Shown: positions 9,856-60,229, counted from the stretch's first letter. The stretch: 64,000 nucleotides of DNA from an uncultured Actinomycetes bacterium (GCA_963757545.1 CAVWSA010000025.1:6898-70897), one strand, 5' to 3'. Translations and numbers: made by a program. Notes: generated by a model from the letters alone, not told the origin.

Positions 9856-9865
9856 TTTCGCCGCC

Positions 9866-10031
9866 GAGGCGGGGCGCGCCGCAGGCGTGTCCCCCCGAGC
9901 CGGCGAAAGGGGGTGCCGCGAGCCATCTCGCCGGCCGAGGCGGGGGTGCGCCGAAGGCGTGCCCCCGCCGAGCCGGCGTTCGGCGCGAAGCGGCGATCGG
10001 GGGGCTCCGGGGGGTCGTCCCCCCGGGCTAA
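9866..10031 (+). repeat. GC-rich structured dispersed repeat, family 1, copy A (1.5 tandem units)
   Basis: 9937-10031 is about 90% identical by eye to 54402-54496, and 9866-9912 repeats its first half. It ends with the hairpin CCGGGGGGTCGTCCCCCCGG (10007-10026) plus GCTAAC, abutting the stop codon at 10032. Confidence 0.8.
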
Positions 10032-10655
10032 CTAGTAGCCGCCGCCACTGCCGTAGCCGCCGGAGCCCATCGACGAGCTGGCCTTCGGGCTCGGTGACGA
10101 GCCAGCGCCCATCATCAGCGAGTTGGCCGACACGGCGTCGATCGCGTTCACCCGGAGCGCGTGCCAGACGCCGCCCAGCCCGTTGCCCTTGACCTGGCCC
10201 GGCGCGGTGTCACCGGCATAGGTGTACAGCGGGTGGCCCTTGTAGGTGGCCTGCACGATCCCGCCGGACCGGTTGATGAAGCCGAGCTTGCCGGTCAGCC
10301 GCACTCCCATGGCGGCCATCGGCTTGCCGGTCAGCGGCGGCCAGGCGGTCGCGCAGCCGCCGGTGCAGGCCGAGGTCATCGCGGTGTCCTTGGCGTACCA
10401 GTACAGCGTGAAGCCCTTGGAGTCGGCCAGCACCGGGCCGATGCCCGTCTTGACCTTCATCAGGCTGGCGGTGCTGGACGACATCATCCCGGAGCTACCG
10501 CTCTTGCTCTTGCCGGCCATGCCCGACGTGCTCGACTTGGTGGACATGGACGAACTATTGCCGCTCGCCGAACTGGGCGTAGTGCCGCTGCCACACGCGG
10601 CCAGCAGCAGCGCGGGTATGGCCAGCACCGCGGGCGTCCATCTGCGGTAACGCAT
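10032..10655 (-). CDS. secreted lipoprotein with two COG4315 / 'secreted repeat of unknown function' type repeats
   Basis: Signal MRYRRWTPAVLAIPALLLAACGSG, then a Ser-rich linker. The repeats are GPVLADSKGFTLYWYAKDTAMTSACTGGCATAWPPL and GHPLYTYAGDTAPGQVKGNGLGGVWHAL. Confidence 0.8.
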   Translation of the reverse strand: MRYRRWTPAVLAIPALLLAACGSGTTPSSASGNSSSMSTKSSTSGMAGKSKSGSSGMMSSSTASLMKVKTGIGPVLADSKGFTLYWYAKDTAMTSACTGGCATAWPPLTGKPMAAMGVRLTGKLGFINRSGGIVQATYKGHPLYTYAGDTAPGQVKGNGLGGVWHALRVNAIDAVSANSLMMGAGSSPSPKASSSMGSGGYGSGGGY

Positions 10656-15993: not shown

Positions 15994-16142
15994 CCGACCC
16001 CTTCGGACCTGCATCAGCTCGGTGCGTTGTGCCCCACCAGCGAGGCATTTCTGCACCGCACTTACGCGTGCGGCACACGGACGCGCCACACCAGTCACAT
16101 CAGCCCCAGCCCAGACGCGGCTAGGGCTCGCACCGCGTCAGC

Positions 16143-16182
16143 GCGGTGAGAAAGCGGTCACCGGCGACCACAAACTCACCGC
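16143..16182 (-). terminator. imperfect palindromic hairpin 3' of the DUF397 gene; degenerate copy of the 46248-46291 palindrome
   Basis: GCGGTGAG...CTCACCGC outer stem plus a GGTC/GACC inner stem. 16156-16182 matches 46264-46290 at 25 of 27 positions. Confidence 0.45.
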
Positions 16183-16184
16183 CC

Positions 16185-16391
16185 TCATGCCACAGACTGA
16201 CCGTCGCGCAGCTGCGCGGTGAATGCCCGCCACTCATCGGGGGTGAAGACAAGGGCTGGGCCGGACTGATCTTTCGAGTCGCGGACGGCGACGATGCCGG
16301 GCAGGTTGCGGGCGACCTGCACGCAGGTTGACCCGTTCGCGCTGTGCGTGCTGGTGCGCCACTGGGCGCGGCGCAGATCGTGAGCGTCCAC
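16185..16391 (-). CDS. DUF397 domain protein
   Basis: WRTSTHSANGSTCVQVARNLPGIVAVRDSKDQSGPALVFTPDEWRAFTAQL is the canonical DUF397 pattern. Confidence 0.85.
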   Translation of the reverse strand: MDAHDLRRAQWRTSTHSANGSTCVQVARNLPGIVAVRDSKDQSGPALVFTPDEWRAFTAQLRDGQSVA

Positions 16392-37966: not shown

Positions 37967-38078
37967 GGCAACTCCCCGTTCCGCCCCGGCCGCTAACCCA
38001 GCCGGAACTCGTGATGTGGCCCCCCTTACCGGGAACGTAATGCGCACATCACGGAAAGGCCAGGGTGGCTCGCCGCGG

Positions 38079-41000
38079 TCAGCCAGGCCCGGTTTTGCGC
38101 AGCGATGGCCGCGTGGTGCGGCTCAGCTCGGTACCCGGTTCCGGCGGCGCTGGCGGCGGTCCGGCTGGCGGCGCACCGGCGGACGGCTCGGCTGCCGGCG
38201 GCGGCGCGGCTGGCGGCTCCGCGGCCGCGACCGCCCGCTGGTAGGCGTCGCGCAGCCGGGCCACCTCGGCCTGCGGGTTCGTGGAACCAGTTGGTGGACC
38301 ACAGCCGGTGGAAACTCCAGCCGAGCCGCTGCAGGTGCTCGCCGCGCAGCCGGTCCCGGTCGCGGACGCTGCCGCGAGGCGTGGTAGGACGCGCCGTCGG
38401 TCTCGATGGCCAGCACCATCCGGCTGACGTCGTCCGGGTGGGTGGCGGCGAAGTCGACCCGGTAGCCGCCGACCCCGTACTGCGGCACCACGGTGATCCC
38501 GCACGCGGCCAGCCGGTCCCGCACGTCGGCCTCGAAACGGGTTCAGCTCGGAGCGGCCCGACGCCTCGGCGCACGTGCCGCCCGGACCCGGCGTACTCCA
38601 GGTAGTCGGCCAGCAGCCGGGCACCGGCCTTGGTCACCCGGTCCGGGTCCACATCGTGCTGGAGAACGAGCTGACCAGGGTGAGCCGGTGCTTGGCCCGG
38701 GTCGCGGCCACGTTCAGCCGGCGCTCGCCGCCGTCGCGCAGCAGCGGGCCCCACTGGTACCGCATCCGGCCGTCCGGGTGCTTGCCGTACCCGATGGACA
38801 GGATGATCGCGTCCCGCTCGTCGCCCTGCACGCGCTCCAGGTTCTTGACGAAGAACGGCTCGGCCGTGTCCTCGGCGAAGAAGGCCTCCAGGTCGGGGTG
38901 CGCGGCCAGCGCGTCGCGCAGCGCCGCGTCGATCCGCTCCGCGTGCTTGATGCCGAGCGCGATCACGCCGAGCGACTGCCGCGGCTGGGTCCGGGCGTGC
39001 TCCAGGATCAGCTCGACCACCTTGTCCACCTCGGCCGTGACCGACACCTCCTGGCCCCGCTCCGGGCCCTGCGCCGACCACCACGTGGCGCAGGCAGTCG
39101 TCGCGCAGCACGCCGGGGAACGTGGTCAGCGCGCCGCCGTAGATGTGCGCGTTGGAGAACGCCACCAGCCGCTCGTCCCGGCTGCGGTAGTGCCAGGTCA
39201 GCGGCGCGGTCGGGAGCAGCGGGCGGAGCGCGTCGAGCACCGACTCGAAGCCCGCGCCGAACGAGACCAGGCTCTCGTCATCGTCCGGCTCGGCCGCCGT
39301 CGCCGTCATCGCCGAACTGGCGGAAGAAGTTGGTCGGCGGCAGCTGCCGGTCGTCCCCGGCGACCACGATCTGGTGCCCGCGCATGACGGACGGGATCGC
39401 GTCGGCCGGGACGATCTGGCTGGCCTCGTCGAAGATGACCACGTCGAACAGCCGGGTCGGCGGGCAGCACCTGGCTGACCATCAGCGGTGACATGGCCCA
39501 GCACGGCTTGAGCGCGAACAGCACGTCGCTGGTCTGGTCGAGCAGCCGCCGCAGCGGCAGATGGCCGGCGGCGCAGCGCCGCCTGCTTGCGGATGACCCG
39601 GGCCTGCAGCGGGTGCCGGTCCTGGGCGTCGCGCAGCCGGTCCGCCCAGGCGCGGCGGACCCGGCCGGCGTTGGCCGCCAGGTGCGCTATGTCCCGGACC
39701 CGGAAGTCGCTGGCGATCTCGTCCAGCGCGCCGCCGCGGTGCGCGGCATAGCCGCGGATCGCGGACCCGCATCTGATCCAGGATCGAGCGAGTACCACGC
39801 GTATCGAACGCGGCGGCGGCCAGCTCCGGGCCCGGCCTCGCGGCGGGCCAGCTCGTCCAGCAGCGGGCCGAGGCCCAGCTCGGCGAAGCCCGACGCGAGC
39901 TGGTACAGCCGGGGCAGCTGCCACGCGGTGTCCTGGTCCGCGGCCAGCTCGGCCAGCTGGACCGCGGGATCCTCGCCGGCAGCGAGACGTAACCGCGCAG
40001 CAGGCCCAGCTGCGCGTCGCAGTGCGCGCCGATCTCGGTCAGCTCCGGATAGCTGGCCGGCAGCCGGGGCAGGCCCTGCGTCGGTGCTCAGCTCGCGCCA
40101 CTGGCCCGAGCTCGGCCGGCGGCCGGCGCGGAGCTGCTGGTGCAGCTCCTCGCGGGGCGGCTCGGCCGTCGCCGATGGCCAGCGCGCGGGCCTGCTTGCG
40201 CAGCGCCCGGCGATCCAGGAAGCTCAGCCCGGCCCCGTCGCCCGTCGCGGCGGCCAGCCGGTCCGGGCCGGCCGCGTACACGGCTGGCCCGAGGTGACCG
40301 CAGCGGTCTGCGCGACCGCCGCGTACAGCCGCAGCACTGGCCACCGCGTCCGGGTAGCCGCGCGGCGGCCGCAGCCCAGGTCTCCGCCGCCGCGCGGGCC
40401 ACCCGGTGCAGCAGCGCGGGCAGCTCATGCGAGCTGAGCCGGGCCACGATGTCGCACGCCTGGCGGGCCTGGTCCGGGGTGCGCAGCGCGGCGCCGTACC
40501 ACGGCGTGCTGCCCGGGCGCAGGGTGAAGCCACCCAGGTGGGCGAACTCGCGCAGCTCGTCCCGGATCTGGTCGGCCGCCTCCCGGGTGATCTGCTCCGG
40601 CCCGGCCAGCCGGACCGGGGTGCGCGCTTCGTCCGGCCCGCCGAGCAGCGCGGCCTGCACCTCGAACGGGGTCAGCCCCCACGGCTTGTGCACGTCGTGC
40701 AGCGCGGTCGCGTGCTGGCTGAGCCGCTGCTGCCGGTCCACCAGGCGGCGGTGCAGGTCGGTCAGGTCCGGCGCCGGCGGTGCGCTGCGCTTCATCCAGG
40801 GTGTCGCCCAGGTCACGGGCGATGCGCAGCCGGTCCCGGGTGCCTTCGTGGATGTCCAGCACCATGCCGCCCAGGCCGACTCCCTTGAGCCGGGACAGCA
40901 CCGCGTCGATGGCGGCCCGTTTCTCCGCGACGAACAGCACCTTGCGGCCCCGGGCGACCAGGGTGGCGATCAGGTTGGCGATGGTCTGGCTCTTGCCCGG

Positions 41001-46215: not shown

Positions 46216-46247
46216 TTCTGCTTAACGCCAGTACCCGCGACTCAACA

Positions 46248-46291
46248 GCGCGGTGACTTTGTGGTCGCCGGTGACCACAAACTCACCGCGC
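46248..46291. terminator. bidirectional palindromic terminator between the convergent cellulase and PL4 genes
   Basis: GCGCGGTGACTTTGTGGTC (46248-46266) pairs with GACCACAAACTCACCGCGC (46273-46291): a 19-bp stem with one mismatch and a 6-nt loop. Confidence 0.6.
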
Positions 46292-46311
46292 TGATGAATT
46301 CCGTCGCCGGG

Positions 46312-48036
46312 TCAGTACATTTCGATGCAGTCGTAGCTGACGGCCGGGCTGAGCCAGTCGCTCAGCGCGCTGGACCCGCTGATCACGGTGATCGTCATCG
46401 TGTTGCTGCCGGCCAGGAACGCGCTGGCCGGCACCGGGTAGCTGTACAGCGTGTTGTTGCCCCGGTAGGTGCCGATGGTCAGGCTGCGCGACGACGGCTG
46501 GCTGGACGGCGACGGCGCGGCCGACGTCCAGTTGTTCACGGTGATCTGCGGCCGTCCGCCGGCGTACGCGGCGGTGATCCCGATCCGCACGGTGCGCGCC
46601 GCGACCTGGCTGGACGACAGGGTGAACTTCACCGTGGTCGGGTTGTTCACGTCCTTGAACTGGTAGGCCGGGAAGTCCGCCGCCGAGCTGCTGCCCACCG
46701 TGTAGGTGACCGGCCCCCAGCTCGCCATCCGGCTGTCCGACGGGTGCATCCAGGTCAGGTTGGCCCAGTTCAGGAAGCCGCTCGGGGTGCCGTCCCAGGT
46801 GCCGATCCGGAACACCGGCGCGGCCGGGGTAAGCCAGGCCGAGTCGATGTTCTGCCCGGTCGTCTCGGCCCCGGCGGAGACCGTCACGGTCCGGGTGGCG
46901 ACGGCCAGCTCGCCCTGGTACAGCGTCTGGGTGTACGTGCCCGGCTTCATCAGCGGGCTGGCGAAGTCACCGTTGGACTGCGGCGTGGCCCAGTACTGCG
47001 CGGCCGGGTTGGCCCAGCCCACCGTGACCGCGGCGCCGGCGGTCACCCCCGAGGCCGCGCCGACCACATAGCCGCGGCCGGCCGGGGCGACCGAGCCGGT
47101 GAAACCGAAGTCGTACATAAAGCTCATGTCCGGCGCGGCCGGCGCGCTGGTCCCGCCGACCAGCAGCGCGTACGGCCCGTACAGCACGCCCAGCCGCTGC
47201 GCCTCGGTCTGGTTGTGCGCCGACCACAGGTAGTTGTACAGCTGGCTGTCCGTGCTGCCCTGCTGCTCGATGTCCCGGAAGAACGGCCCGCCCGCGCTGC
47301 TCTCCCGGTTGCCGTAGGCCATCCACACGCCGATGCCGCTGCCGGTGACACCGCGCACGGTCAGGTTCATCGCCTGCCGGTTCGAGTAGTACTTGGACCG
47401 GGTCTGCCCGTCCAGCAGGTAGATGTCGGTGGACTCGATCGCCGTCCCGCCGTTGATCTCGGCTGGGGTGTACACCGTGCTGATCACGCTGGCGTTCAGC
47501 CGGCTGATCCAGCGCAGCTCGCCCGCCCCGGCCGAGTTGACGTACGTCGCCAGGTAGATGTTGTTCTGGCCGCTCACCGCGACCAGGTAGTGGATCAGCG
47601 TGCCGCTGCCATACCAGTCGGTCACCGACTCGGTGATCACGATGTAGTTGCCGGTCTGCGTCGCGGTGACCGTGGCCCCGGCGCCCAGGCCCGACTCCAC
47701 CTGCGAGAACGAGGTCTGGTCCTGCAGCTCGGTGCCGTTGTAGCTGAGCGAGGTCATGTCGCCGTCCGACTGGCTGATCTTGAACGTGAGCCCGGCCCCG
47801 GTGCTCACCGTGTAGTAGCCGCCGCTGCTGGTGTAGCCGAACGCGGTGGCCGCGCTGGCCGGCGCGATCCGGCCCGCCACCGCGTCCGCCGCGGTGCCGG
47901 CCAGCCCGAGGGCCAGGCCGCTGGCGGCGGCGCCAGTGAGGAACCGGCGCCGCCCCAGGCGGCGGGGCCCGGGCGATGCGCTCTGTTGGTCCGGGGGGAC
48001 GACCCCCCTGGACCCCCCGGGAAAGCTGAACGTCAT
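46312..48036 (-). CDS. rhamnogalacturonan lyase (PL4 family) with a Tat-type signal
   Basis: RRRFLTGAAASGLALGLAGTAADA. The overall resemblance to RhgB-type lyases (FGYTSSGGYYTVSTGAGLTFKISQSDGDMTSLSYNGTELQ..., C-terminal beta-sandwich modules) is judged from memory. ATG 48036 is preceded by GGGGAGGGG. Confidence 0.75.
   Translation of the reverse strand: MTFSFPGGSRGVVPPDQQSASPGPRRLGRRRFLTGAAASGLALGLAGTAADAVAGRIAPASAATAFGYTSSGGYYTVSTGAGLTFKISQSDGDMTSLSYNGTELQDQTSFSQVESGLGAGATVTATQTGNYIVITESVTDWYGSGTLIHYLVAVSGQNNIYLATYVNSAGAGELRWISRLNASVISTVYTPAEINGGTAIESTDIYLLDGQTRSKYYSNRQAMNLTVRGVTGSGIGVWMAYGNRESSAGGPFFRDIEQQGSTDSQLYNYLWSAHNQTEAQRLGVLYGPYALLVGGTSAPAAPDMSFMYDFGFTGSVAPAGRGYVVGAASGVTAGAAVTVGWANPAAQYWATPQSNGDFASPLMKPGTYTQTLYQGELAVATRTVTVSAGAETTGQNIDSAWLTPAAPVFRIGTWDGTPSGFLNWANLTWMHPSDSRMASWGPVTYTVGSSSAADFPAYQFKDVNNPTTVKFTLSSSQVAARTVRIGITAAYAGGRPQITVNNWTSAAPSPSSQPSSRSLTIGTYRGNNTLYSYPVPASAFLAGSNTMTITVISGSSALSDWLSPAVSYDCIEMY
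47989..48023. repeat. family-1 hairpin copy D, inside the 5' coding end of the PL4 gene
   Basis: CCGGGGGGACGACCCCCC (47991-48008) followed by TGGACCCCCCGGG. It is translated as ...GGSRGVVPPD... in the Tat n-region. Confidence 0.55.
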
Positions 48037-48046
48037 CGCCCCTCCC

Positions 48047-49539
48047 CTACAGGCCCGGGTAACTCGGGAACGAGCAGGACGGCACGCTGCCGCTGCCGGT
48101 GAACGAGGTGACGGTCACGTCCGTGCCGGACGGGGTGATGTTGCTGTTGTACGTGCGGATGCTGGCGTACTCGGCGCTGGTGCTGGTCGCGTCGAGGCTG
48201 ACGTTCTCCAGGGTCAGCCCGAGCAGGTGGCTGGAGTTGTAGCCCTCCAGCACGGACTGGGCGCTGGACGCCGAACTGACCGCCTTCAGCCCGTCCACCA
48301 CGATGTTCTCGAAGTACGGCGTGGTCGAGCCGTTGCCGGATGAGTAGAACGGGTTGAACTCCAGCGCGTGCTTGACCCCGGTCAGGCAGTTGCTGTCGTA
48401 GGTCACCCCGTTGACCGTGCCGCCCTCGCTGGACGTGGTCTTGATCCGCAGCCCGTTGTTGTCGCTGCTCACGTTCCCGGCCGAGTCGGTCCCGCTGACC
48501 GTGTTGTTCTCGACCAGGATGTTGCTCACCCCGTACTGGGTCTGGCTGCCGATGGAGATCCCGTGCGTGCCGTAGAAGTGGCTGTTCTCGATGGTCATGT
48601 TGGACGCGGCGGCCGAGTTGGTCTTGATCGCGATGCCGTCGTCGCCGTCCTGGATGTAGGAGTCGTTCACGGTGACGTTGGACGCGCTGTCCGGGTCGAT
48701 GCCGTCGGTGTTCCGCGCCGTGGCCGGGGTCTTGATCCGCACCCCCCACACGGTGAGCCCGCTGCCGCCCTCGAAGTAGATGTGGAACAGCGGCGCGTTG
48801 ATCAGGTCCACGTCGTACACGGTGAAGTTGTTCACGTCGTGCGCCTCGATCAGCCGCGGGTTGTTCTGGTCGTCACCATCGGTCTTGGCCGTGTTGGACA
48901 GCGTCCACCAGCTTCCGCTGGTGCCCAGGATGTCCTGGTCACCCCGCCCGTTGATGGCGCCCTGGCTGCCGCTCGGGCTCTGCGTGCCCATGATGGCGGC
49001 GTTCGACCCGGTCACGTTGATGAACGGCTTGCAGCCGTTGCCGCTGGACGCCACGGTGCCGCAGGTGGCCTGGCCGGACACCTGATAGTTGGCCGGGTTG
49101 CGGGACGCGTACAGCGTGGCGCCCGCGTCGAACGAGCAGGGTCACGCTGGCGGGCAGCGACAGCGGGCCGGACAGGAAACTGTTGTCGCTGCCGCTGGGG
49201 GCCAGCACGACCGCCTCGCCGGTGCCGCTGCAACTGTTCAGCGCGGACTGGATCCGCGAGGTGTCCGGCGGCGCGGCCTCGGCGCTGCTGCTGAACTGCT
49301 CGTTGCTGGTGGCCAGGGTGGCGCTCAGCGTGGCGCAGGTGGCCGGGACGCTGGGCTGGGCCACCGCGCGGCTGTCCCCGGTGGCCAGGGCCAGGCTGGC
49401 CGCCGCGCGGCTGGCCAGGCCCGGCCGGGTGGCTGGCCGCCGCGGCCGCGGGCAGCGCGAAGCCTGCCACGGCAGCGATGAGAGCGCTAACAACTGTGCT
49501 GATGGCTAACTGGCGGGGACGGACGGGAGGGTGTTTCAC
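48047..49539 (-). pseudogene. GH28 endo-polygalacturonase (PehA-like), two frame changes (about 49435 and 49130)
   Basis: GTG 49539 gives the signal VKHPPVRPRQLAISTVVSALIAAVAGFALPAAAAA. Then come ATCATLSATLATSNEQF...SRIQSALNSCSG...FLSGPLSLPASVTLLV and the core in ORF 48047..49081 with NTDGIDP, GDDGIAIK, THGISIGS and RIKT. Confidence 0.8.
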
Positions 49540-49840
49540 GGGGACAGTCCTCTCAGGCGGGCCTCTGCGAGCGGGCGGCGGGGCGACAGCGGCCTCCACG
49601 GGCCGGCCAGTGCTCTGCGGCCCGGCCGGCCGGCGCGCCCCGCTCCCGAGGGCTGTCCCGCCGAACGCTACGGACCCGCTGGCCCCCGGGCAAGAAACTC
49701 CCGGCTCTTCGCCAGCCCGGCCGCATCCACGCAGGTCAGCGAGGCCGTGGCCGGCCCGCGGATGAAAGGAACATGAAACCCGCAGCGGCCAGCCAGCCGG
49801 CCATCCGACGGTCTCCGCTGCGGTCGCCGGTTGCCGCCTC

Positions 49841-50022: not shown

Positions 50023-51483
50023 CTAGGAGACTGGGCGCAGCGGCTCGGGCAGCAGCTGTGCGGGGAAGTCCTGGTAGGTCACCGGGATCAGCCAGCGCCG
50101 GATGGCGGTGGCGCCGACCGAGGTGAACCCCGGTGCGGTGGTGGCCGGGAACGGGCCGCCGTGCTGCTGGGCCCAGGTGACCGCGACCCCGGTCGGCCAG
50201 CCGTTCCACACCACCCGCCCCGTGGTGCGGGTGAACACGTCGGCGACCTGGGCCGCGGCCGCCAGGTCGGTGGCCGAGTCCGGGTCGCCGTGGATCACCC
50301 CGGCCAGGTTGCCGCCCAGCCGGGCCAGCACCGGCAGCAGGTCCTCCGCTGACTGGTAGGTGATGACCAGCCCGGCCGGGCCGAAGTGCTCCTCGGCCGT
50401 GCCGGGCAGCCCGGCCGCGAACTGCTCCAGCGTGGTGCCGAAGACGTGCGGGGTGGCCGCCCACGGCCCCTCCCCCGGCTGCCCGTCGGCGATCGGGCTG
50501 ACCGCCGGGCTGGCGGCCAGCTCGTCCACGGCGGCCTGGTAGGACTCGTGGATCCGGCCGGTCAGCATGGGCGCGCCCGCGGATCCGGCGACCGCGTCCG
50601 CGATCGCGCCGCGCAGCCCGGGGTCGTCGGGCACGAACATCAGGCCCGGGTTGGTGCAGAACTGGCCCGCGCCCAGGGTGAGCGACCCGGCGTACCCGGC
50701 GGCGATCTCGGCCGGCCGGGCGGCCGCCGCGCCGGGCAGGATGACCACCGGGTTGACCGAGCCAAGCTCGCCGAAGAACGGGATCGGCACCGGGCGTTCC
50801 GCGCAGATCCTGGCCAGCGCCAGCCCGCCGCGCACCGACCCGGTGAACCCGGCCGCGGCGATGGCCGGGTGCCGCAGCAGCCGGATGCCGGCCGGCACGC
50901 CGTACACGACGGCGAACGTGCCCGGCGGCGCGCCCGCCCCGGCCAGCGCCCCGGACACGATCTCGGCGGTCAGCACCGAGGTCTGCGGATGCCCCTCGTG
51001 CGCCTTGACCACCACCGGGCAGCCGGCCGCCAGCGCCGACGCGGTGTCCCCGCCCGCTACCGAGAACGCGAACGGGAAGTTGGACGCGGCGAACACGGCG
51101 ACCGGGCCGATCGGGTGCATCATGTGCCGCAGCCCGGGCACCCCGCTGCCCGGCGGGCTGGTGATCACGTCCAGGTAGCCGCCGTCGGCCAGCACATCGC
51201 AGAACATCCGGAGCTGGCCGGTGGTGCGGGCCACCTCACCGGTCAGCCGGGTGCTGCCCAGCGCGGTCTCGGTGTCGGCCAGCGCGGCCAGTTCGGCGGC
51301 CCGTGCGTCCAGCGCGTCGGCCACCGCGGCCAGCGCCTTAGCCCGCCCGGCCGGGCCGGCCCCGGACCAGGCCGCGAGTGCCCCGGCCGCCGCCGTGGCC
51401 GCCGCGTCCACCGCGCTGTCGCTGGTCTCGGCCACCGGCTCGCCGGTGGGCTGGCCGGTCCGCGGGTCGAATCCCTGGATCAT
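50023..51483 (-). CDS. NAD(P)-dependent aldehyde dehydrogenase (alpha-ketoglutaric-semialdehyde-dehydrogenase-like)
   Basis: FAASNFPFAFSVAGGDTASALAAGCPVVVKAHEGHP, FFGELGSVNP, GAGQFCTNPG (catalytic Cys). Start at ATG 51483 (MIQGFDP) within track ORF 50023..51654. Confidence 0.85.
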   Translation of the reverse strand: MIQGFDPRTGQPTGEPVAETSDSAVDAAATAAAGALAAWSGAGPAGRAKALAAVADALDARAAELAALADTETALGSTRLTGEVARTTGQLRMFCDVLADGGYLDVITSPPGSGVPGLRHMMHPIGPVAVFAASNFPFAFSVAGGDTASALAAGCPVVVKAHEGHPQTSVLTAEIVSGALAGAGAPPGTFAVVYGVPAGIRLLRHPAIAAAGFTGSVRGGLALARICAERPVPIPFFGELGSVNPVVILPGAAAARPAEIAAGYAGSLTLGAGQFCTNPGLMFVPDDPGLRGAIADAVAGSAGAPMLTGRIHESYQAAVDELAASPAVSPIADGQPGEGPWAATPHVFGTTLEQFAAGLPGTAEEHFGPAGLVITYQSAEDLLPVLARLGGNLAGVIHGDPDSATDLAAAAQVADVFTRTTGRVVWNGWPTGVAVTWAQQHGGPFPATTAPGFTSVGATAIRRWLIPVTYQDFPAQLLPEPLRPVS

Positions 51484-51554
51484 GAAATTCCGTCCTGTCG
51501 CTGCTGAGCCAGCCGGGGCACCGGCACGCCGGTCCACCCTATGCGCGGCATTTC

Positions 51555-51650
51555 TTTGCGCCTCCGGGGGGCTGGACCCGCCGACTTCCCTCCTCGCTCG
51601 TTCCTTGCTCGTCAGTCCAGTCAGCGGCGCCCCCCTTCGGCGCGGGGCCG
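51555..51650 (+). repeat. GC-rich dispersed repeat, family 2, copy E1
   Basis: Its reverse complement aligns at roughly 85-90% (by eye) with 52755-52860. It contains the CE8 stop codon (51621-51623) and the last ~10 codons. Confidence 0.7.
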
Positions 51651-54377
51651 CCATCCGCCCAGGTAGTCAGCCACCGTGTACTGCGCCGCCTGCGCCGCGG
51701 TGAGCTGCGGCACGTCCGCGGCCACGACGGCGCCCGGCCCGGCGTTCTGGTACTCGTAGAACCGGGCGTCCTGCCACGGGAACGGCGGGCTGGTCCAGTT
51801 CTGCCACTGCTCCGGGTTGATCGCCGCGGGCAGGTAGGTGTCCCGGATGGTGATCTGGCCTACCGGGTTGGTCACCCCGGTATGCCGCCACGGCCGGCCC
51901 AGGTAGTAGCTGGCCGCGGCCAGGTTCCCGGGGCTGTTGATGATGCGGCTGTTGGTGATCAGGTAGCCATACGGCTGCTCCAGCCCGGTGTCCGGGGCAC
52001 TTACCGTGCCCCCCGGGTGGCCCAGAATGTCGATGGTGTCGTGGTCGAACACGGCCGTGCCCGAGCCACACAGGAAGTCCACCTGGCCGGAGATGTAGTC
52101 GTCCAGGTAGAGCTGCCGGGCGGGCGGCGGCGTGGTGCTGCCCGGCGGCGACGTGGCGGGCGGCCCGCCCGGGGCGAAGCACTCGGCCGGGGTGAACGGG
52201 TCCGCGTACGAACTGGCGAACACCGTGTCCTGGATGCCGAGCAGCCGGTCCCGGGCGAACACCACCCGGTCGGCCACCGTCTTGACCGCCACCGCCTGCG
52301 GCGAGGTGATCTGCGGGTTGGCCGCCGGGTCGAAGGAGTTCTGCACGGTGATGCCGTAGGCGGCGAACCCGTTGCCGGCCACCGACAGGGTGGCGCTGCA
52401 GTCGGTGCCGTACTGGTTGCCGTTGGGCGCGACCGTGCCGTGCGCGATGTCGTCCACCAGGACGACGTCGCGCGGGTTCCCAGTCGCCCCGGCCAGCGTG
52501 ATGTCCGGCTCGGAGGCGGGCACGTAGATCTGGCCCCAGTAAGTGCCCGGGTCGATCCGGATCGTCACCGGCCCGCTACCCGGCGGGATCGCGTCCAGCG
52601 CTGCCTGCACCGAGGCGAACGTCCCGGGCCGACCGCTCTGCGACACCACCAGCAGGTGGTGCCTCCCCGCGACGCCGGCCCAGGCCGGCCCCTGCGCCGC
52701 GAGGAGGGTCAATAAGGCCGCCGCGCCAAAGGCGCGCGCCGCCGTCTGGACTGCCGCGCCGAAGGGGGGCGCCGCCGACTGGACTGAGGAGCGCGGAGCG
52801 AGGAACGAGTGACAAGCGACGAGGGAAGACGGCGGGTCCAAGCCCCCCGGAGGCGCAAAGCAAGCAGAGTACGAGCGAACAAGCGACGAGGGAAGACAGC
52901 GCAGTGAAGGGGGAATGGGGAGGTGGGCGGGGCGCCGGAGGCGCCAAATCATGACTGTCACCGGGGTGCCGCCGACGGTCACGTCCTCGACGACCAGGTT
53001 GGAGATGTACTGGGCCGAGTTGGCCACGGTGGACGTGGTAATGGTGAGGTCGTCCAGGGTGACGGTGCCGACCGGGTCGGTGGCCGACGCGCCGACGATC
53101 GACCACACTCCCTCGCAACTGCCCACCGTCCAGTCAGCCAGCGTGATGCCGGTGATGTCGGGCGGGAAGTCCCCGGTCTGCCCGCTGTAGTTGCCCTGGA
53201 TCAGCAGCAGCGGGCCGCCGACCGTGCCGGCGTTGATCCGGTACACGTTGCTGTTGAGCGCGTAGCCGCCGCGCAGCGTGTTGGTCTTGATCCGGTGCCC
53301 GGCCTGCAGGTTGGCGCTGTTCAGGGTCAGGTCGCGGGCGTAGACGTTCCGCACCCCGCCGGTCATCTCGCTGCCGATGGTGATGCCGCCGTGCCCGTTG
53401 GCGAAGTTGCAGTTCTGGATGACCACGTTCTGGCTGGGCACGTTGACCCGGCGGCCGTCGGCGTCCCGGCCGGACTTGATCGCGATGCAGTCGTCGCCGG
53501 TGTTGAACGTGACCGAGTCGATGACCACCCCGTCGCAGGACTCCGGGTCGCAGCCGTCGGTGTTCGGCCCGGACGAGTTGATGCTCACGCCCTCGACCGT
53601 GACGTTGCTGCACAGGTTCGGGTTCAGGTGCCAGAACGGCGAGTTGATGAACGTGACGCCCTGGAGCAGCACGGTGTCGGTCAGGAACGGCTGGATCATC
53701 TGCGGCGGCAGGAAGTGCCCGGCGCCAAACACCCGCTGGGCGACCGGCACGTTGTCGTCGGCCATCTGCTCCAGTAGAGAGAAATCGGCGGTCTCCATGT
53801 CCTTCCAGTTCCACCAGTGGTTTGCGTCGGCCTGCCCGTTCAGCGTGCCCTGGCCGGTGATGGCGATGTTCCGCTGGCCGTAGGAGTAGACCGGCGGCGA
53901 GTAGTTCATCAGCTCGATGCCCTGCCACCGGGTGAGCACCACCGGCAGGTAGGCGTTCGGGTCCTGGCTGAACAGGATGACCGAGTCCGCGTTGGCCAGG
54001 TGCAGATCGACGTTGCTGAGCAGGTGGATGGCCCCGGTGAAGAACTGCCCGGACGGGACGATCACGTGCCCGCCGCCGGCCCGGTGGCAGGCGGCGATGG
54101 CCGCGGCGAACGCGGCCGTGCAGTCGGTGGTCCCGTCCCCGACGGCGCCGAACCGGGTGACCGGGAAGAACCGGCGGGGAAACCATGGACGGCGCACCGA
54201 GGCGACGATGCGGTCAGCGGCCCGGTCCATGGCCGACCAGGGACCAGACGGGCGGCTGGGCCGCGCGGTGGCAGCGCTAACATTTGCCGCGCCGGCCCAC
54301 AGCGGGCTGGTTAAGGCTCCGGCTCCGGCCAGTGCCGAGTAGCGGAGCATGCTGCGGCGGTTGAGGTCCTTCGACAT
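51621..54377 (-). CDS. single 918-aa ORF joining a Tat-signal GH28 exo-polygalacturonase-like module (54377 to ~52955) and a CE8 pectin methylesterase module (~52670 to 51621) through ~95 repeat-encoded codons
   Basis: GH28 part: MSKDLNRRSMLRYSALAGAGAL, NTDGCDP, GDDCIAIKSG, GHGGITIGSE, RIKT. CE8 part: QAVAVK, GIQDTVF, DFLCG, YYLGRPW. No in-frame stop lies between them. ATG 54377 is preceded by GGAGG. Confidence 0.75.
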   Translation of the reverse strand: MSKDLNRRSMLRYSALAGAGALTSPLWAGAANVSAATARPSRPSGPWSAMDRAADRIVASVRRPWFPRRFFPVTRFGAVGDGTTDCTAAFAAAIAACHRAGGGHVIVPSGQFFTGAIHLLSNVDLHLANADSVILFSQDPNAYLPVVLTRWQGIELMNYSPPVYSYGQRNIAITGQGTLNGQADANHWWNWKDMETADFSLLEQMADDNVPVAQRVFGAGHFLPPQMIQPFLTDTVLLQGVTFINSPFWHLNPNLCSNVTVEGVSINSSGPNTDGCDPESCDGVVIDSVTFNTGDDCIAIKSGRDADGRRVNVPSQNVVIQNCNFANGHGGITIGSEMTGGVRNVYARDLTLNSANLQAGHRIKTNTLRGGYALNSNVYRINAGTVGGPLLLIQGNYSGQTGDFPPDITGITLADWTVGSCEGVWSIVGASATDPVGTVTLDDLTITTSTVANSAQYISNLVVEDVTVGGTPVTVMIWRLRRPAHLPIPPSLRCLPSSLVRSYSACFAPPGGLDPPSSLVACHSFLAPRSSVQSAAPPFGAAVQTAARAFGAAALLTLLAAQGPAWAGVAGRHHLLVVSQSGRPGTFASVQAALDAIPPGSGPVTIRIDPGTYWGQIYVPASEPDITLAGATGNPRDVVLVDDIAHGTVAPNGNQYGTDCSATLSVAGNGFAAYGITVQNSFDPAANPQITSPQAVAVKTVADRVVFARDRLLGIQDTVFASSYADPFTPAECFAPGGPPATSPPGSTTPPPARQLYLDDYISGQVDFLCGSGTAVFDHDTIDILGHPGGTVSAPDTGLEQPYGYLITNSRIINSPGNLAAASYYLGRPWRHTGVTNPVGQITIRDTYLPAAINPEQWQNWTSPPFPWQDARFYEYQNAGPGAVVAADVPQLTAAQAAQYTVADYLGGWRPRAEGGRR
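52716..52948 (-). repeat. GC-rich dispersed repeat, family 2, composite copy E2 (inverted relative to E1, with internal duplications and a family-1-like end module)
   Basis: A 33-nt unit GCCGCGCCAAAGGCGCGCGCCGCCGTCTGGACT / GCCGCGCCGAAGGGGGGCGCCGCCGACTGGACT occurs in tandem. ACAAGCGACGAGGGAAGAC occurs twice. GGCGGGGCGCCGGAGGCGCC (52926-52945) resembles hairpin 1 of family 1. Confidence 0.7.
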
Positions 54378-54401
54378 TGCGGTTACCTCCATCTCGTTGG
54401 C

Positions 54402-54496
54402 GAGGCGGGGCGCGCCGGAGGCGTGTCCCCGCCGAGCCGGCGATCGGCGCGAAGCGGCGATCGGGGGGTTCCGGGGGGTCGTCCCCCCGGGCTAAC
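54402..54496 (+). repeat. GC-rich structured dispersed repeat, family 1, copy B
   Basis: Full sequence: GAGGCGGGGCGCGCCGGAGGCGTGTCCCCGCCGAGCCGGCGATCGGCGCGAAGCGGCGATCGGGGGGTTCCGGGGGGTCGTCCCCCCGGGCTAAC. It fills the 119-nt gap between the dehydratase stop (54497) and the GH28 start (54377). Confidence 0.8.
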
Positions 54497-56230
54497 TCAG
54501 CGGGGGTCGGGCTCGGGATTCCGGCCGGCCCTGGCCAGGAACCCGAAATCACAGCCCTTGTCCGCCTGGGTCACGTGCTCGCTGTACAGCGCGCCGTAAC
54601 CACGCTCATACCGGGGCGGCGGCGGCCGCCAGGCGGCGCGCCGCCGGTGCAGTTCCGCGTCGCTCACCTCCAACCGGAGCGCCCGCTCCGGCACGTCGAG
54701 AGTGATCAGGTCGCCGGTGCGGGCCAGCGCGAGCGGGCCCCCGACGTAGGACTCCGGCGCCACGTGCAGCACGCAGGCCCCGTAGCTGGTGCCGCTCATC
54801 CGGGCGTCACAGATGCGCACCATGTCCCGGACCCCCTGGGCCAGCAGGTAGTCCGGGATGGGCAGCATGCCGTACTCCGGCATGCCCGGGCCGCCGAGCG
54901 GGCCGGTGTTCCGCAGCACCAGCACCGAGTCGGCGGTGATGCCCAGCGCCGGGTCGTCGATGGTGTCCCGGATCTGCTGGTAACTGTCGAACACCACGGC
55001 CGGCCCGGTGTGCTTGAGCAGCGCCGGGTCGGCCGCGATGTGCTTGATCACGGCGCCGTCCGGCGCCAGGTTGCCCCGCAGCACCGCGAGCCCGGCTTCC
55101 GGCGCCAGCGCGGTACTGGCGTTACGGATCACGTCCTCGTTGCCGACCTCAGCCCCGGCCAGCCCGTCAGCGAGGGAACGGCCGGTCACCGTCATCCGGT
55201 CGGGGTGCAGCGCGCCGGGGACCTTGGCCAGTTCGGCCAGCAGTGCGCGCAGGCCGCCGGCGTAGTAGAAGTCCTCCATCAGATATTTGCCGCCGGGGCG
55301 GATGTTGGCCAGCACCGGGACCCGGCGGGCGATCTCGTCGAAGTCGTCCAGGGACAGCGGCACGCCACAGCGCCCGGCCATGGCGATGAGGTGGATGACC
55401 GCGTTGGTCGACCCGCCCAGGGCGAGCACGGTGGCCACCGCGTCCTCGAACGCCTCGGCGGTGAGGATCCGGTCCGGGGTGAGGTTCTCCCAGGCCATCT
55501 CCACGATCCGGCGGCCGGTCGCGGTGGCCATCCGGTAGTGCGCCGAATCCACCGCCGGGATGGACGCCGCGCCGGGCAGCGTCATGCCCAGCGCCTCGGC
55601 CGCCGATGTCATGGTGGACGCGGTGCCCATCGTCATGCAGTGCCCAGGCGAGCGGGCGATGCCGTCGGCCAGGTCGGCCATCTCGCAGTCGCCGATCAGC
55701 CCGGCCCGCTTGTCGTCCCAGTACTTCCACAGATCGGTGCCGCTGCCCAGGGTGCCGCCGCGGTAGTTGCCGCGCAGCATCGGCCCGGCCGGCAGGTAGA
55801 TGGCCGGGATGCCCGCGCTGGCCGCGCCCATCAGCAGCGCCGGGGTGCTCTTGTCACAGCCGCCCATCAGCACCGCGCCGTCGGCCGGGTAGGACCGGAG
55901 CAGTTCCTCGGTGTCCATGGCCAGCAGGTTGCGGTACAGCATCGGGGTCGGCTTCTGGAACGTCTCGGACAGCGAGGCCACGCCGAACTCGGCCGGGAAA
56001 CCGCCCGCCTCCCAGATGCCCCGCCTGACCTGCTCGGCCCGTTCCCGCAGGTGCATGTGGCACGGGTTCAGCTCGGACCAGGTGTTGACGATCGCGATGA
56101 CCGGCTTGCCCCGATAGTCCACGGGGTCCGCGCCGAGCTGGCGCATCCGGGTGCCGTGGCTGAACGCCCGCATCCCGTCGCCGCCGAACCAGCGGTCGCT
56201 GCGGAGCGCTGACCCGGGAGGGCGGCTCAC
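54497..56230 (-). CDS. IlvD/Edd-family sugar-acid dehydratase
   Basis: LRSDRWFGG...NTWSELNPCHMHL...MGGCDKSTPALLMGA...SPGHCMTMGTAST...DARMSGTSYG. GTGA overlap with kdgK. Confidence 0.9.
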   Translation of the reverse strand: MSRPPGSALRSDRWFGGDGMRAFSHGTRMRQLGADPVDYRGKPVIAIVNTWSELNPCHMHLRERAEQVRRGIWEAGGFPAEFGVASLSETFQKPTPMLYRNLLAMDTEELLRSYPADGAVLMGGCDKSTPALLMGAASAGIPAIYLPAGPMLRGNYRGGTLGSGTDLWKYWDDKRAGLIGDCEMADLADGIARSPGHCMTMGTASTMTSAAEALGMTLPGAASIPAVDSAHYRMATATGRRIVEMAWENLTPDRILTAEAFEDAVATVLALGGSTNAVIHLIAMAGRCGVPLSLDDFDEIARRVPVLANIRPGGKYLMEDFYYAGGLRALLAELAKVPGALHPDRMTVTGRSLADGLAGAEVGNEDVIRNASTALAPEAGLAVLRGNLAPDGAVIKHIAADPALLKHTGPAVVFDSYQQIRDTIDDPALGITADSVLVLRNTGPLGGPGMPEYGMLPIPDYLLAQGVRDMVRICDARMSGTSYGACVLHVAPESYVGGPLALARTGDLITLDVPERALRLEVSDAELHRRRAAWRPPPPRYERGYGALYSEHVTQADKGCDFGFLARAGRNPEPDPR

Positions 56231-60136: not shown

Positions 60137-60229
60137 GGGGCACGACTGGTGAGGGCACGACTGGTGAGGGCACGACTGGTGAGGGCACGACTGGTGAGGG
60201 CACGACTGGTGAGGGGCCACGACTGGTGA
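60125..60229 (+). repeat. 15-bp tandem repeat, 7 units (CACGA(T/C)TGGTGAGGG), seeded by the last codons and stop codon of manD
   Basis: The manD 3' end CAC GAT TGG TGA GGG is followed by six copies of (G)CACGACTGGTGAGG(G). Two units are 16 nt. The array ends 20 nt before the uxaC start. Confidence 0.9.

What the first reader, a model, noticed from the sequence alone, without database searches (positions are those of the whole stretch)
51555..52948. Inverted GC-rich repeats bracket the pectinesterase module and fuse it in frame to the upstream GH28 gene
E1 (51555-51650) and E2 (52716-52948, opposite orientation) share about 105 nt at roughly 85-90% identity by eye. Shared blocks include CGCCGAAGGGGGGCGCCGC-GACTGGACTGA and GAGGGAAG-CGGCGGGTCC-AGCCCCCCGGAGGCGCAAAG.

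Together they flank exactly the CE8 core. The CE8 stop and its last ~10 codons lie inside E1. The ~95 codons linking GH28 (...EDVTVGGTPVTV) to CE8 (VAGRHHLLVVSQSG...) are encoded entirely by E2. That stretch includes the only signal-peptide-like segment (AARAFGAAALLTLLAAQGPAWA).

No stop codon survives in frame, so two normally separate secreted enzymes read as one 918-aa ORF. There is no canonical start codon for a standalone, signal-bearing CE8. E2 also shows internal tandem duplications (a 33-nt unit x2, a 19-nt unit x2), which suggests an actively rearranging element.
Basis: seen in the sequence. Interest (0 to 1): 0.7.

Follow-up and report, generated by a model that had tools for sequence, protein, structure and literature searches.

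The report
Palindromic repeat copies flanking a pectinesterase gene
Two copies of a small hairpin-forming repeat, found scattered through a group of uncultured soil actinomycetes, sit at either end of a pectinesterase gene; the apparent fusion to the neighbouring polygalacturonase gene comes from one extra base, not from the repeat.

Summary
E1 (core 51554-51643, - orientation) and E2 (52719-52948, + orientation) are copies of one dispersed repeat, with 85 of 90 aligned bases identical.

The unit is 90-107 nt (about 117-119 nt with its end extensions). It has inverted ends and a purine-rich centre. It recurs in four uncultured actinomycete/Streptosporangiaceae genome bins and in soil metagenomes, with 44 full copies in the DNA held here. 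Its hairpin shows strong compensatory variation. Copies tend to lie directly after TGA stop codons.

In two orthologous loci without the repeat, GH28 and CE8 are separate genes that overlap by ATGA.
- The window keeps that ATGA, so the CE8 start codon survives at 52952-52950.
- E2 was inserted right after it, in frame (+204 nt), inside the signal-peptide coding region.
- E2 has no stop in any frame on that strand.
- The GH28 stop is bypassed by a single extra base (52956), four bases before the ATG of the ATGA. This may be a real mutation or an assembly error; other genes in the window are also frameshifted.
- E1 marks a deletion of the neighbouring epimerase gene.

CE8 is not a mobile cassette. 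I read this as a new member of the REP/REPIN/RPE kind of repeat. Interest is modest.

The parts
51554..51643 (-). E1: one short-form (90-nt) unit of the palindromic repeat. With its CC prefix it reaches 51645. Its right-end extension (NARCAGAGC) is missing.
   Evidence: nhmmer with the family profile gives E=2.7e-18 over model positions 1-107. The RNA fold of this strand is -50.3 kcal/mol, z -2.85. It supplies CE8 codons AEGGRR and the TGA stop at 51621-51623.
52719..52948 (+). E2: a composite of one whole unit plus partial units of the same repeat. It is inserted directly after the ancestral ATGA and replaces codons 2-10 of the CE8 signal peptide.
   Evidence: Comparison with L019 and L020 shows a net +204 nt, or 68 codons. 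There are no stop codons in any frame on the - strand.
52720..52752 (+). E2 module a: a duplicated left arm (33 nt, 88% identical to 52753-52785).
   Evidence: (D1). The same left-arm duplications occur in L003, L011, L012, L024 and L039.
52756..52860 (+). E2 module b: one complete long-form unit (105 nt).
   Evidence: nhmmer E=3.6e-25 over model positions 1-107. It is nearly identical to the units in L002 and L003.
52861..52901 (+). E2 module c: the right-end extension (CAAGCAGAG) followed by a partial second unit (centre and right arm).
   Evidence: D2: 52812-52834 / 52879-52901, 96%. L002, L011 and L012 have the same architecture.
52902..52948 (+). E2 module d: the variant block CAGTGAAGGGGGAATGGGGAGGTGGGCGGGG followed by a degenerate right end (CGCCGGAGGCGCCAAA).
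   Evidence: The same variant block lies inside copies in L013 and L015.
52949..52952 (-). The ancestral ATGA stop/start overlap. ATG (52952-52950) is the conserved CE8 start. TGA (52951-52949) is the ancestral GH28 stop, now out of the GH28 frame.
   Evidence: L019 2525-2528 and L020 10001-10004 have the same TCATGA, where GH28 ends and CE8 starts.
52956..52956 (-). The one extra base (GTGACAGTCATGA against GTGACGTCATGA in relatives). It puts GH28 in frame with CE8.
   Evidence: Direct comparison. GH28 relatives end ...PVTS*...PVTG* or ...PVVS*.
52953..54377 (-). GH28 polygalacturonase gene with a twin-arginine-type N-terminus (NRRSMLRY).
   Evidence: Pfam. tblastn with L019 and L020 GH28 gives 86-89% identity over residues 1-470.
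51621..52718 (-). The ancestral part of CE8: the 3' half of the signal peptide (LLTLLAAQGPAWA) plus the mature pectinesterase, ending in the E1-coded tail.
   Evidence: 93% identical to P0121 (371 aa, stand-alone).
51483..51517 (-). Remnant of the last ~10 nt of the deleted NAD-epimerase gene plus the spacer before the aldehyde dehydrogenase start (ATG 51483-51481).
   Evidence: Local alignment to L019 4467-4511 and L020. No epimerase match anywhere in the window.
54407..54497 (+). Copy of a second, unrelated GC-rich hairpin repeat between the dehydratase and GH28 genes. It is not part of E1/E2, but it is a third insertion in the same operon.
   Evidence: 95% identical to 9943-10033. The spacer is 49 nt in L020 and 120 nt here. 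The repeat is also present in L005, L007, L018 and L036.

Best explanation
**What E1 and E2 are.** They are two independent copies of a lineage-specific, non-coding, hairpin-forming dispersed repeat. The core is 90-107 nt, about 117-119 nt with its short end extensions. It resembles REPIN elements and the Rickettsia palindromic element. It is carried by a clade of uncultured Streptosporangiaceae-like soil actinomycetes.

**Anatomy of the unit.**
- The two ends are inverted copies of each other (GCGCCGAAGGGGGGCGCCGCCGACT ... AGTCGGCGGGTCCAAGCCCCCCGGAGGCGC).
- They flank a purine-rich centre made of GAGCGAG-like motifs.
- The whole unit folds into one long imperfect hairpin, and that pairing is maintained by compensatory changes.

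**Where copies land.** They lie preferentially right after a TGA stop codon, on either strand, without an obvious target duplication. I infer, without proof, that a trans-acting enzyme moves them as a folded single strand, in the manner of IS200/IS605 or RAYT tyrosine transposases.

**Why copies end up inside ORFs.** The unit has almost no stop codons, so a copy that lands at a stop/start overlap becomes part of an ORF.

**What happened in this window.**
1. E2 went in right after the ATGA that ends GH28 and starts CE8. It replaced about 27 nt of the CE8 signal-peptide coding region and happened to keep the frame.
2. E1 went in at the 3' end of CE8 and now supplies the stop codon. The sequence next to it, essentially the whole epimerase gene, was then lost.
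3. Separately, one extra base 4 nt before the ATG of the ATGA moved GH28 out of register with its TGA and into the CE8 frame. This created the 923-codon ORF.

**Whether a fusion protein is made.** This is not known. The extra base could be an assembly error. If it is real, the locus looks like a decaying pectin-degradation operon rather than an engineered bifunctional enzyme.
For: **Shown**
- Family and distribution. An exact 20-mer from the repeat is found at 17 loci in four genome bins. A 26-mer is found at 19 metagenome loci. A profile search gives 67 hits, 44 of them full length, in 316 kb. There are none in the orthologous loci L001, L019 and L020.
- Structure. On 36 distinct units, 23 pairs form in 99.5% of cells. 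Seven pairs show changes on both sides (31 cells). None of 500 shuffles reaches these values, and versions with the partners slid by 1-3 columns pair in only 37-58% of cells.
- Stop-codon adjacency. 10 of 21 distinct non-nested left flanks have a stop triplet within 6 nt, against a background of 9%. 6 of 21 read TGANN|unit, against a background of 1%. Reverse-complement stops cluster 9-12 nt after the right end. A crude gene model places most clusters 3-18 nt from a gene's stop.
- A second in-frame insertion after ATGA. In L005 the element (117 nt) sits between the ATG and the NPSTAF... of MenD. Gene calls P0246, P0247 and P0248 begin (A/G)TGACC|G(C/A)GCC. P0244, P0249 and P0250 carry repeat-coded C-terminal tails.
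- Few stops. E2 has 0 stops in all three frames of the - strand. In five of the six reading frames, 28-35 of 37 distinct units are open.
- Orthologous loci. GH28 and CE8 are separate and overlap by ATGA. The 1-nt difference is seen directly. The stand-alone CE8 relatives are 347-401 aa with N-termini such as MKRAICLALASLLTLLAAPGTAWA.
- The epimerase gene is present in L019 and L020 and absent from the window.

**Inferred**
- The transposition chemistry.
- The order of events.
- The consequences for expression.
Against: - No transposase or RAYT-like gene was found.
- Copy number looks like tens per genome, lower than for classical REPs.
- Neither E1 nor E2 has a canonical TGACC|unit junction. 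E1's left end abuts CCCCGC inside CE8. E2's outer right end lacks about 9 nt of the usual extension. Both junctions must therefore have been remodelled, or the copies arrived by another route such as recombination or repair.
- The enrichment next to stops could partly reflect selection (insertions elsewhere are lost) rather than targeting.
- Compensatory changes could also arise from hairpin-templated repair rather than from selection on a function.
Confidence: 0.8

Rival explanations
1. The inverted repeats delimit a mobile or invertible CE8 cassette. On this view, E1 and E2 act like the ends of a composite element that brought the pectinesterase into the locus, or that can flip it as a switch.
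For: The two copies are in inverted orientation. They bracket the CE8 coding region almost exactly, and they are 94% identical over the aligned core.
Against: L019 and L020 have CE8 at the same position and in the same orientation, between GH28 and the downstream genes, with no repeat. CE8 is 86-93% identical to those orthologues, similar to its neighbours GH28 (86-89%) and the aldehyde dehydrogenase (79-89%), so it was inherited with them. No inverted configuration was seen.
Confidence: 0.04
2. The 923-aa ORF is a real, selected bifunctional polygalacturonase-pectinesterase. The repeat-derived stretch serves as its flexible linker, and the whole protein is exported through the N-terminal twin-arginine signal.
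For: The ORF is uninterrupted. Proteins carrying both GH28 and CE8 domains exist elsewhere, for example P0013, P0016 and P0022. The GH28 N-terminus has an RR motif.
Against: - In the sequence inspected (P0013), CE8 lies N-terminal to GH28, with a normal linker.
- The linker here has non-coding composition (GC3 0.76 against 0.95). It still contains the hydrophobic half of a signal peptide.
- The fusion depends on a single extra base. The window has other 1-nt frameshifts: GH28b and a helicase-like gene split over frames.
- The closest relatives keep two genes.
Confidence: 0.1
3. The element is chiefly a functional RNA or DNA signal that is kept at gene ends by selection. Candidates are a factor-independent terminator, an mRNA-stabilising hairpin, or an RNase III site formed by E2-E1 pairing. 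On this view it is not a mobile element.
For: There is strong covariation in the hairpin. Copies lie at 3' ends of genes, often between convergent genes. Copies are conserved at orthologous sites in different bins, for example L008/L018, L014/L032 and L016/L035. Within one transcript, E2 and E1 could form a duplex of about 95 bp (-209 kcal/mol, against -112 for shuffled controls).
Against: - There is no T-run after the stem in either orientation, and no terminator-like site is called.
- No Rfam family matches.
- Both orientations occur relative to the upstream gene, as E1 and E2 themselves show.
- Nested and partial copies, presence/absence between close relatives, and insertions inside coding regions are the behaviour of a spreading element.
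- The two views are not exclusive.
Confidence: 0.25

Closest known systems
REPINs / REP sequences with RAYT transposases (Pseudomonas, enterobacteria; PMC3116915, PMC3337134)
   Same: Both are about 100 nt, made of two inverted arms around a spacer, and fold into a hairpin. Arm mutations are compensated. Both are extragenic at gene ends, form clusters and partial copies, and persist at orthologous sites.
   Different: No RAYT was found. No GTAG or CGTC tag was seen at the expected end. Copy number appears to be tens, not hundreds. The host is a high-GC actinomycete. The centre is a long purine-rich tract.
Rickettsia palindromic elements (RPE), cited in PMC3733652 as palindromic repeats inserted in frame within ORFs
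   Same: Both are palindromic repeats of about 100-150 nt that are tolerated inside protein-coding genes as in-frame insertions. Here the cases are E2 in CE8, and the copy in L005 in MenD.
   Different: The sequence and host are unrelated. Here the in-ORF copies sit at the extreme N-terminus, right after an ATGA overlap, or form C-terminal tails, rather than lying in internal loops.
IS200/IS605-derived miniature elements (own knowledge: single-strand 'peel and paste' transposition, insertion 3' of a short specific target, no target duplication)
   Same: Both have hairpin ends, no evident target duplication, and insertion immediately 3' of a short fixed sequence (here TGA or TGAC).
   Different: In IS200/IS605 the left and right ends each have their own hairpin, whereas here the two ends pair with each other. 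No TnpA was found. The target preference could also be a product of selection.
Classical MITEs such as Neisseria Correia elements (own knowledge)
   Same: They are of similar size, have terminal inverted repeats, are intergenic, and can be co-transcribed and form RNase III substrates.
   Different: Correia elements duplicate a TA target and derive from a DDE transposon. No duplication is visible at the one site that can be reconstructed here (L005).
Mycobacterial interspersed repetitive units, MIRU (own knowledge)
   Same: Both occur in actinobacteria, lie between genes of one operon, and have reading frames that connect with the stop and start of the flanking genes.
   Different: MIRUs are direct tandem repeats of 46-101 bp without a long hairpin. 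There is no sequence similarity.

Membership tests
REP/REPIN-RAYT system | Two inverted REP arms separated by a spacer, folding as one hairpin | tested here: met
   Consensus structure of 23 pairs with 99.5% of cells paired. Single-sequence folds.
REP/REPIN-RAYT system | Compensatory evolution between the arms | tested here: met
   7 pairs and 31 cells have changes on both sides. 0 of 500 shuffles reach this.
REP/REPIN-RAYT system | A cognate RAYT (Y1 HUH transposase) gene in the genome, usually flanked by the repeat | not testable with these tools
ORFs bracketed by copies in L006 and L016 gave no such domain. The source genome is not in the look-up.
REP/REPIN-RAYT system | Conserved GTAG or CGTC tetranucleotide tag at one end of the palindrome (PMC3733652) | tested here: not met
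   The left end is (TGA)CC-GCGCC. The right extension reads NA(G/A)CAGAGC, with GTAG only in a few copies (L007, L026) and on the 3' side.
REP/REPIN-RAYT system | High copy number (hundreds per genome) | tested here: inconclusive
   Exact 20-mer matches number 8 in each of the two best bins. Only exact matches could be counted, and the bins are incomplete.
Classical MITE (DDE-transposon derived) | Terminal inverted repeats | tested here: met
   GCGCCGAAGGGGGGC against GCCCCCCGGAGGCGC.
Classical MITE (DDE-transposon derived) | Target-site duplication flanking each copy | tested here: not met
   In L005 the inferred empty site is ATGA|ATCCG and the filled site is ATGA|CC...CAGA|ATCCG. No duplication is seen in the flanks listed. 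E1 and E2 show adjacent deletions instead.
Classical MITE (DDE-transposon derived) | A parent IS with matching ends | not tested
Rickettsia palindromic element-like 'coding palindromes' | In-frame insertion of the repeat into bona fide protein genes, with the ORF preserved | tested here: met
   E2 in CE8 (+68 codons). MenD in L005 (+39 codons). Repeat-coded N- or C-terminal stretches occur in Pfam-bearing proteins P0244, P0246, P0248 and P0250.
Rickettsia palindromic element-like 'coding palindromes' | Sequence relationship to the RPE families | not tested
   No RPE sequences were at hand. The host and base composition make a relationship unlikely.
Known structured RNA family (Rfam) | Match to a curated covariance model at its gathering score | tested here: not met
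   0 matches in the whole window. The only other hit was a chance-level match, E=0.59.
Natural bifunctional GH28-CE8 enzyme | Fusion conserved in relatives, with a linker of coding character | tested here: not met
   The closest GH28 relatives (P0001, P0002, P0004) and CE8 relatives (P0121-P0145) are single-domain. L019 and L020 have two genes. Linker GC3 is 0.76.

The most novel reading that the evidence does not exclude
The repeat could be a stop-codon-seeking, stop-codon-free mobile hairpin. On this reading, an undescribed single-strand transposition system in uncultured Streptosporangiales inserts exactly 3' of TGA. When it hits ATGA or GTGA overlaps, it is read through as new N-terminal or C-terminal peptide sequence. 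It would thereby repeatedly remodel protein termini and operon junctions, and inverted pairs such as E2/E1 would create ~95-bp dsRNA clamps around single genes.
Probability: 0.25. Interest if true: 0.6.

Novelty: new member of a known kind. Interest (0 to 1): 0.35.

Why it matters
For annotation, the case shows how a GC-rich repeat without stops, combined with a single indel, can produce a convincing but probably spurious two-enzyme fusion. Gene calls in related metagenomes show the same kind of artefact: a dehydratase-GH28 fusion, a CE8-epimerase fusion, and repeat-coded tails.

For biology, it adds a structured, stop-codon-adjacent palindromic repeat family in an uncultured actinomycete lineage, a group for which I found no described REP-like elements. 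It also gives two clean examples of such a repeat being absorbed in frame into the start of a gene.

It does not reveal a new kind of system.

Tried and rejected
- **Source genome.** An exact-protein look-up of the window's 923-aa ORF and of the dehydratase found nothing on record.
- **Other assemblies of the same junction.** A junction-specific metagenome scan (GGTGAC[N]GTCATGATTTGGCGCCTCCGG), meant to find assemblies with or without the extra base, gave 0 hits.
- **Known RNA families.** Rfam at gathering score gave nothing. The permissive search gave only a chance-level snoRNA match.
- **Plasmids.** A BLAST of E2 against plasmid records gave no match.
- **Terminator or promoter consensus.** The scan over 51300-54600 found nothing.
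- **Transposase next to copies.** ORFs bracketed by copies in L006 and L016 gave either no Pfam match or DUF3145 and a nucleoside hydrolase, so no transposase.
- **Assembly quality.** I tried to gauge it from a codon-position GC frame plot. The plot is noisy, and most candidate frame switches turned out to be ordinary neighbouring genes. Only the helicase-like gene at 38029-40038 looks split.
- **Protein search with repeat peptides.** A search with concatenated six-frame peptides of the repeat returned only 13 proteins. That is enough for examples but not for counting.
- **Cassette idea.** The idea that CE8 is a repeat-bounded cassette was rejected on synteny.
Full report
**1. The observation**

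The region was read on both strands. The repeat finder on 51400-53100 reports a set of collinear inverted matches between 51551-51645 and 52721-52901. The longest is 59 nt at 85%. A gapped alignment of the cores (51554-51643 reverse-complemented, against 52756-52860) gives 85 identical of 90 aligned positions, plus a 15-column length difference. The 33-nt tandem duplication (52720-52785) and a second duplicated 23-mer (52812-52834 and 52879-901, 67 nt apart) are real. ORF 51621-54392 (-) is open for 923 codons and carries GH28 and pectinesterase domains.

**2. What the repeat is**

*Distribution.* An exact 20-mer from the right arm was found at 17 places in four genome bins out of 185,579 species representatives. 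Two bins are labelled 'uncultured Actinomycetes bacterium' and two 'Streptosporangiaceae bacterium'. A 26-mer from the left arm was found at 19 places in JGI soil metagenomes. A profile built from 18 units finds 67 hits, 44 of them full length, in the 316 kb held.

*Anatomy.* Units come in a short form (~90 nt, like E1) and a long form (~105-107 nt, like the E2 core). The two forms differ by a 16-nt internal duplication. The ends are inverted copies of one another, and the centre is a purine-rich run of GAGCGAG-like motifs. A short extension (NARCAGAGC) follows the right arm, and CC usually precedes the left arm. The full element is therefore about 117-119 nt; it is exactly 117 nt in L005.

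*Structure.* RNAalifold on 36 distinct units predicts one long interrupted hairpin. On that structure 99.5% of cells pair. Seven of 23 pairs show changes on both sides, in 31 cells, for example GGGGGGC/GCCCCCC against GGGGCGC/GCGCCCC and GCGCC/GGCGC against GAGCC/GGCTC. No shuffle out of 500 reaches any of the measures, and sliding the partners by 1-3 columns drops pairing to 37-58%. The hairpin is therefore maintained.

*Not a known family.* No Rfam family matches, and no plasmid record carries the element.

**3. Where copies sit**

Of 21 distinct, non-nested left flanks, 10 have a stop triplet ending within 6 nt (background 9%). Six read TGANN|unit exactly, mostly TGACC (background about 1%). 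On the right side, reverse-complement stops cluster 9-12 nt after the core, which is right at the end of the extension. A crude GC3-based gene model places most clusters 3-18 nt from a gene's stop, often filling the gap between convergent genes. Partial and nested copies are common. New left arms follow the internal ACTGAC/ACTGCC of a resident copy.

The unit is almost free of stop codons. In five of the six frames, 28-35 of 37 distinct units are open, and E2 has no stop in any frame of the - strand. Copies are consequently swallowed by ORFs:
- In L005 the element sits in frame between the ATG of an ATGA overlap and the NPSTAF... of MenD. The comparison with the M. tuberculosis MenD N-terminus MNPSTT is from my own knowledge.
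- Several database proteins with real domains start MTEPKG, VTAPKG or MTEPEG. These read as (A/G)TGACC|G(C/A)GCC.
- Others end in repeat-coded tails.

**4. The locus compared with relatives**

The closest stand-alone CE8 (P0121, 93% identical, 371 aa) and another relative (P0125) led to two orthologous contigs, L019 and L020. Both lack the repeat. Both have the gene order dehydratase - GH28 - CE8 - NAD-epimerase - aldehyde dehydrogenase, with GH28 and CE8 overlapping by ATGA. At the junction the sequences read:

| Source | Sequence |
|---|---|
| L019 | ...GTG CCG GTG ACG TCA TGA AGAGGGCG... |
| L020 | ...ACT CCG GTG ACG TCA TGA GGCGCCCG... |
| Window | ...ACC CCG GTG ACA GTC ATG A TTTGGCGCC... 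|

. Four points follow.

(a) The ATGA is still there (52952-52949), so the CE8 start codon is conserved.

(b) E2 begins immediately after the ATGA. Homology to the ancestral gene resumes at CCTTA(T/C)TGACCCTCCTCGCGGCGC (52717 downward), so E2 replaced codons 2-10 of the signal peptide. P0121 reads MKRAICLALAS|LLTLLAAPGTAWA, and the window reads M-[77 E2 codons]-LLTLLAAQGPAWA. The net gain is 204 nt, so the frame is kept.

(c) GH28 runs on only because of one extra base (52956) between GTGAC and GTCATGA. Without it GH28 would end ...PVTS* exactly as in its relatives.

(d) The E2-coded stretch has no coding signature. GC at codon positions 1/2/3 is 0.68/0.68/0.76, against 0.60/0.50/0.95 for GH28 and 0.66/0.55/0.96 for CE8.

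**5. The E1 side**

Relatives read ...TGG CGG CCC CGC CTG ... stop. A short spacer, the epimerase gene (about 810 nt), another spacer and the aldehyde dehydrogenase follow. In the window, E1's left arm starts right after ...TGG CGG CCC C and supplies AEGGRR plus the TGA. E1's right extension is missing. Only about 10 nt of the epimerase 3' end plus the spacer remain before the dehydrogenase ATG. No epimerase homologue exists anywhere in the window. E1 therefore sits at a deletion junction.

Three further genes that lie between the dehydrogenase and the second GH28 in L020 are also absent. That second GH28 (48047-49599) carries a 1-nt insertion relative to L020.

**6. Is the fusion real?**

This cannot be settled here. 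The extra base is not in a homopolymer. The window holds at least one other 1-nt frameshift (GH28b), plus a helicase-like gene whose domains lie in different frames. A related metagenome contig shows an analogous frameshift 'fusion' of the dehydratase and GH28. Either the assembly has scattered indel errors or the pectin locus is decaying.

Either way, the repeat is a necessary condition for the long ORF, because it has no stops and keeps the frame, but it is not the cause of the lost stop. If the base is real, translational coupling at ATGA is lost. CE8 would then be made only as the C-terminal part of a protein whose linker still contains half a signal peptide. If the base is an error, CE8 starts at its own ATG with a 77-residue insertion ahead of the hydrophobic core of its signal peptide, and its export is doubtful.

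**7. Possible consequences of the inverted pair**

In one transcript, the E2 and E1 sequences are complementary over about 95 nt. The predicted duplex is -209 kcal/mol, against -112 +/- 6 for shuffled controls. Co-folding the two stretches gives -239 kcal/mol, against -143 for the two folded separately. Such a duplex would be an RNase III substrate, but local hairpins and translating ribosomes would compete with it. This is inference only. No inversion of the segment is seen relative to the orthologues.

**8. Mechanism of spread (inferred)**

Four features resemble single-strand transposition by Y1 HUH enzymes (IS200/IS605, REPIN/RAYT): hairpin ends, no visible target duplication at the one reconstructable site (L005), insertion immediately 3' of a fixed short sequence on either strand, and nested self-insertions. 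The literature found describes REPINs, RAYTs, REPs that provide stop codons, and in-frame palindromic insertions (PMC3116915, PMC3337134, PMC3733652). PMC3733652, which I searched for these terms, does not mention actinomycetes. I could not look for the enzyme. ORFs bracketed by copies in L006 and L016 are not transposases. Selection alone could also concentrate surviving copies next to stops.

**9. Verdict**

The sequence observation is confirmed. The claim that the repeats fuse the genes is partly right, because the linker is repeat DNA and has no stops. It is wrong on the cause (a 1-nt frameshift), on the missing start codon, and on the implied modularity of CE8. The repeat is an apparently undescribed member of a well-known class of bacterial palindromic dispersed repeats. 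Interest is modest.

Noticed in passing
window 54407-54497, 9943-10033, 9865-9906, 47991-48019: A second, unrelated GC-rich repeat of about 91 nt built of three hairpins (RNA fold -60 kcal/mol, z -3.5). Two copies are 95% identical, and there are partial copies. It also occurs in L005, L007, L018 and L036. Its GGGCTAAC end abuts the stop codon of the gene reading into it. The dehydratase-GH28 spacer is 49 nt in L020 and 120 nt here.
   Followed up: partly
window 48047-49599 (-), frameshift near 49100: The second polygalacturonase gene is split by a 1-nt insertion (CTCGTTCGAC against CTCAT-CGAC in L020). It is otherwise 90% identical at the DNA level.
   Followed up: yes
window 38029-40038 (-): In a helicase-like gene, the AAA_12 C-terminal half and the MTES_1575 nuclease domain lie in different reading frames. 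This points to further frameshifts, either a pseudogene or assembly error.
   Followed up: partly
window 50023-51483 to 48047 compared with L020 11681-16496: Relative to L020, the window lacks the NAD-epimerase gene and three further genes (a 389-aa unknown, DUF1707, and an alpha/beta hydrolase) between the aldehyde dehydrogenase and the second GH28.
   Followed up: partly
L005 3487-3606: The same repeat (117 nt) is inserted in frame between the ATG of an ATGA overlap and the NPSTAF... N-terminus of a MenD homologue. This is the same architecture as E2, with the element in the opposite orientation.
   Followed up: yes
L001 7525-10635 (protein P0002); protein P0166: Metagenome gene calls fuse the dehydratase with GH28 through a frameshift near the dehydratase 3' end, and fuse CE8 with the epimerase. 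These are further examples of neighbouring genes of this operon being read as one ORF.
   Followed up: partly
window 60138-60215: A perfect tandem array of a 15-nt unit (GGGCACGACTGGTGA), about five copies.
   Followed up: no
window 16120-16189 and 46227-46296: A 70-nt sequence present twice (74% direct, 88% as an inverted match). Each copy is internally palindromic around GGTCACCGG/GGTGACC. It could be a shared operator or another small repeat.
   Followed up: no
L008 717-807 vs L018 5186-5338; L014 vs L032; L016 vs L035/L031: Orthologous sites in different bins or metagenomes carry the repeat in different forms: short against long, or with extra partial units. The element therefore either persists and rearranges in place or re-inserts at the same target.
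   Followed up: no
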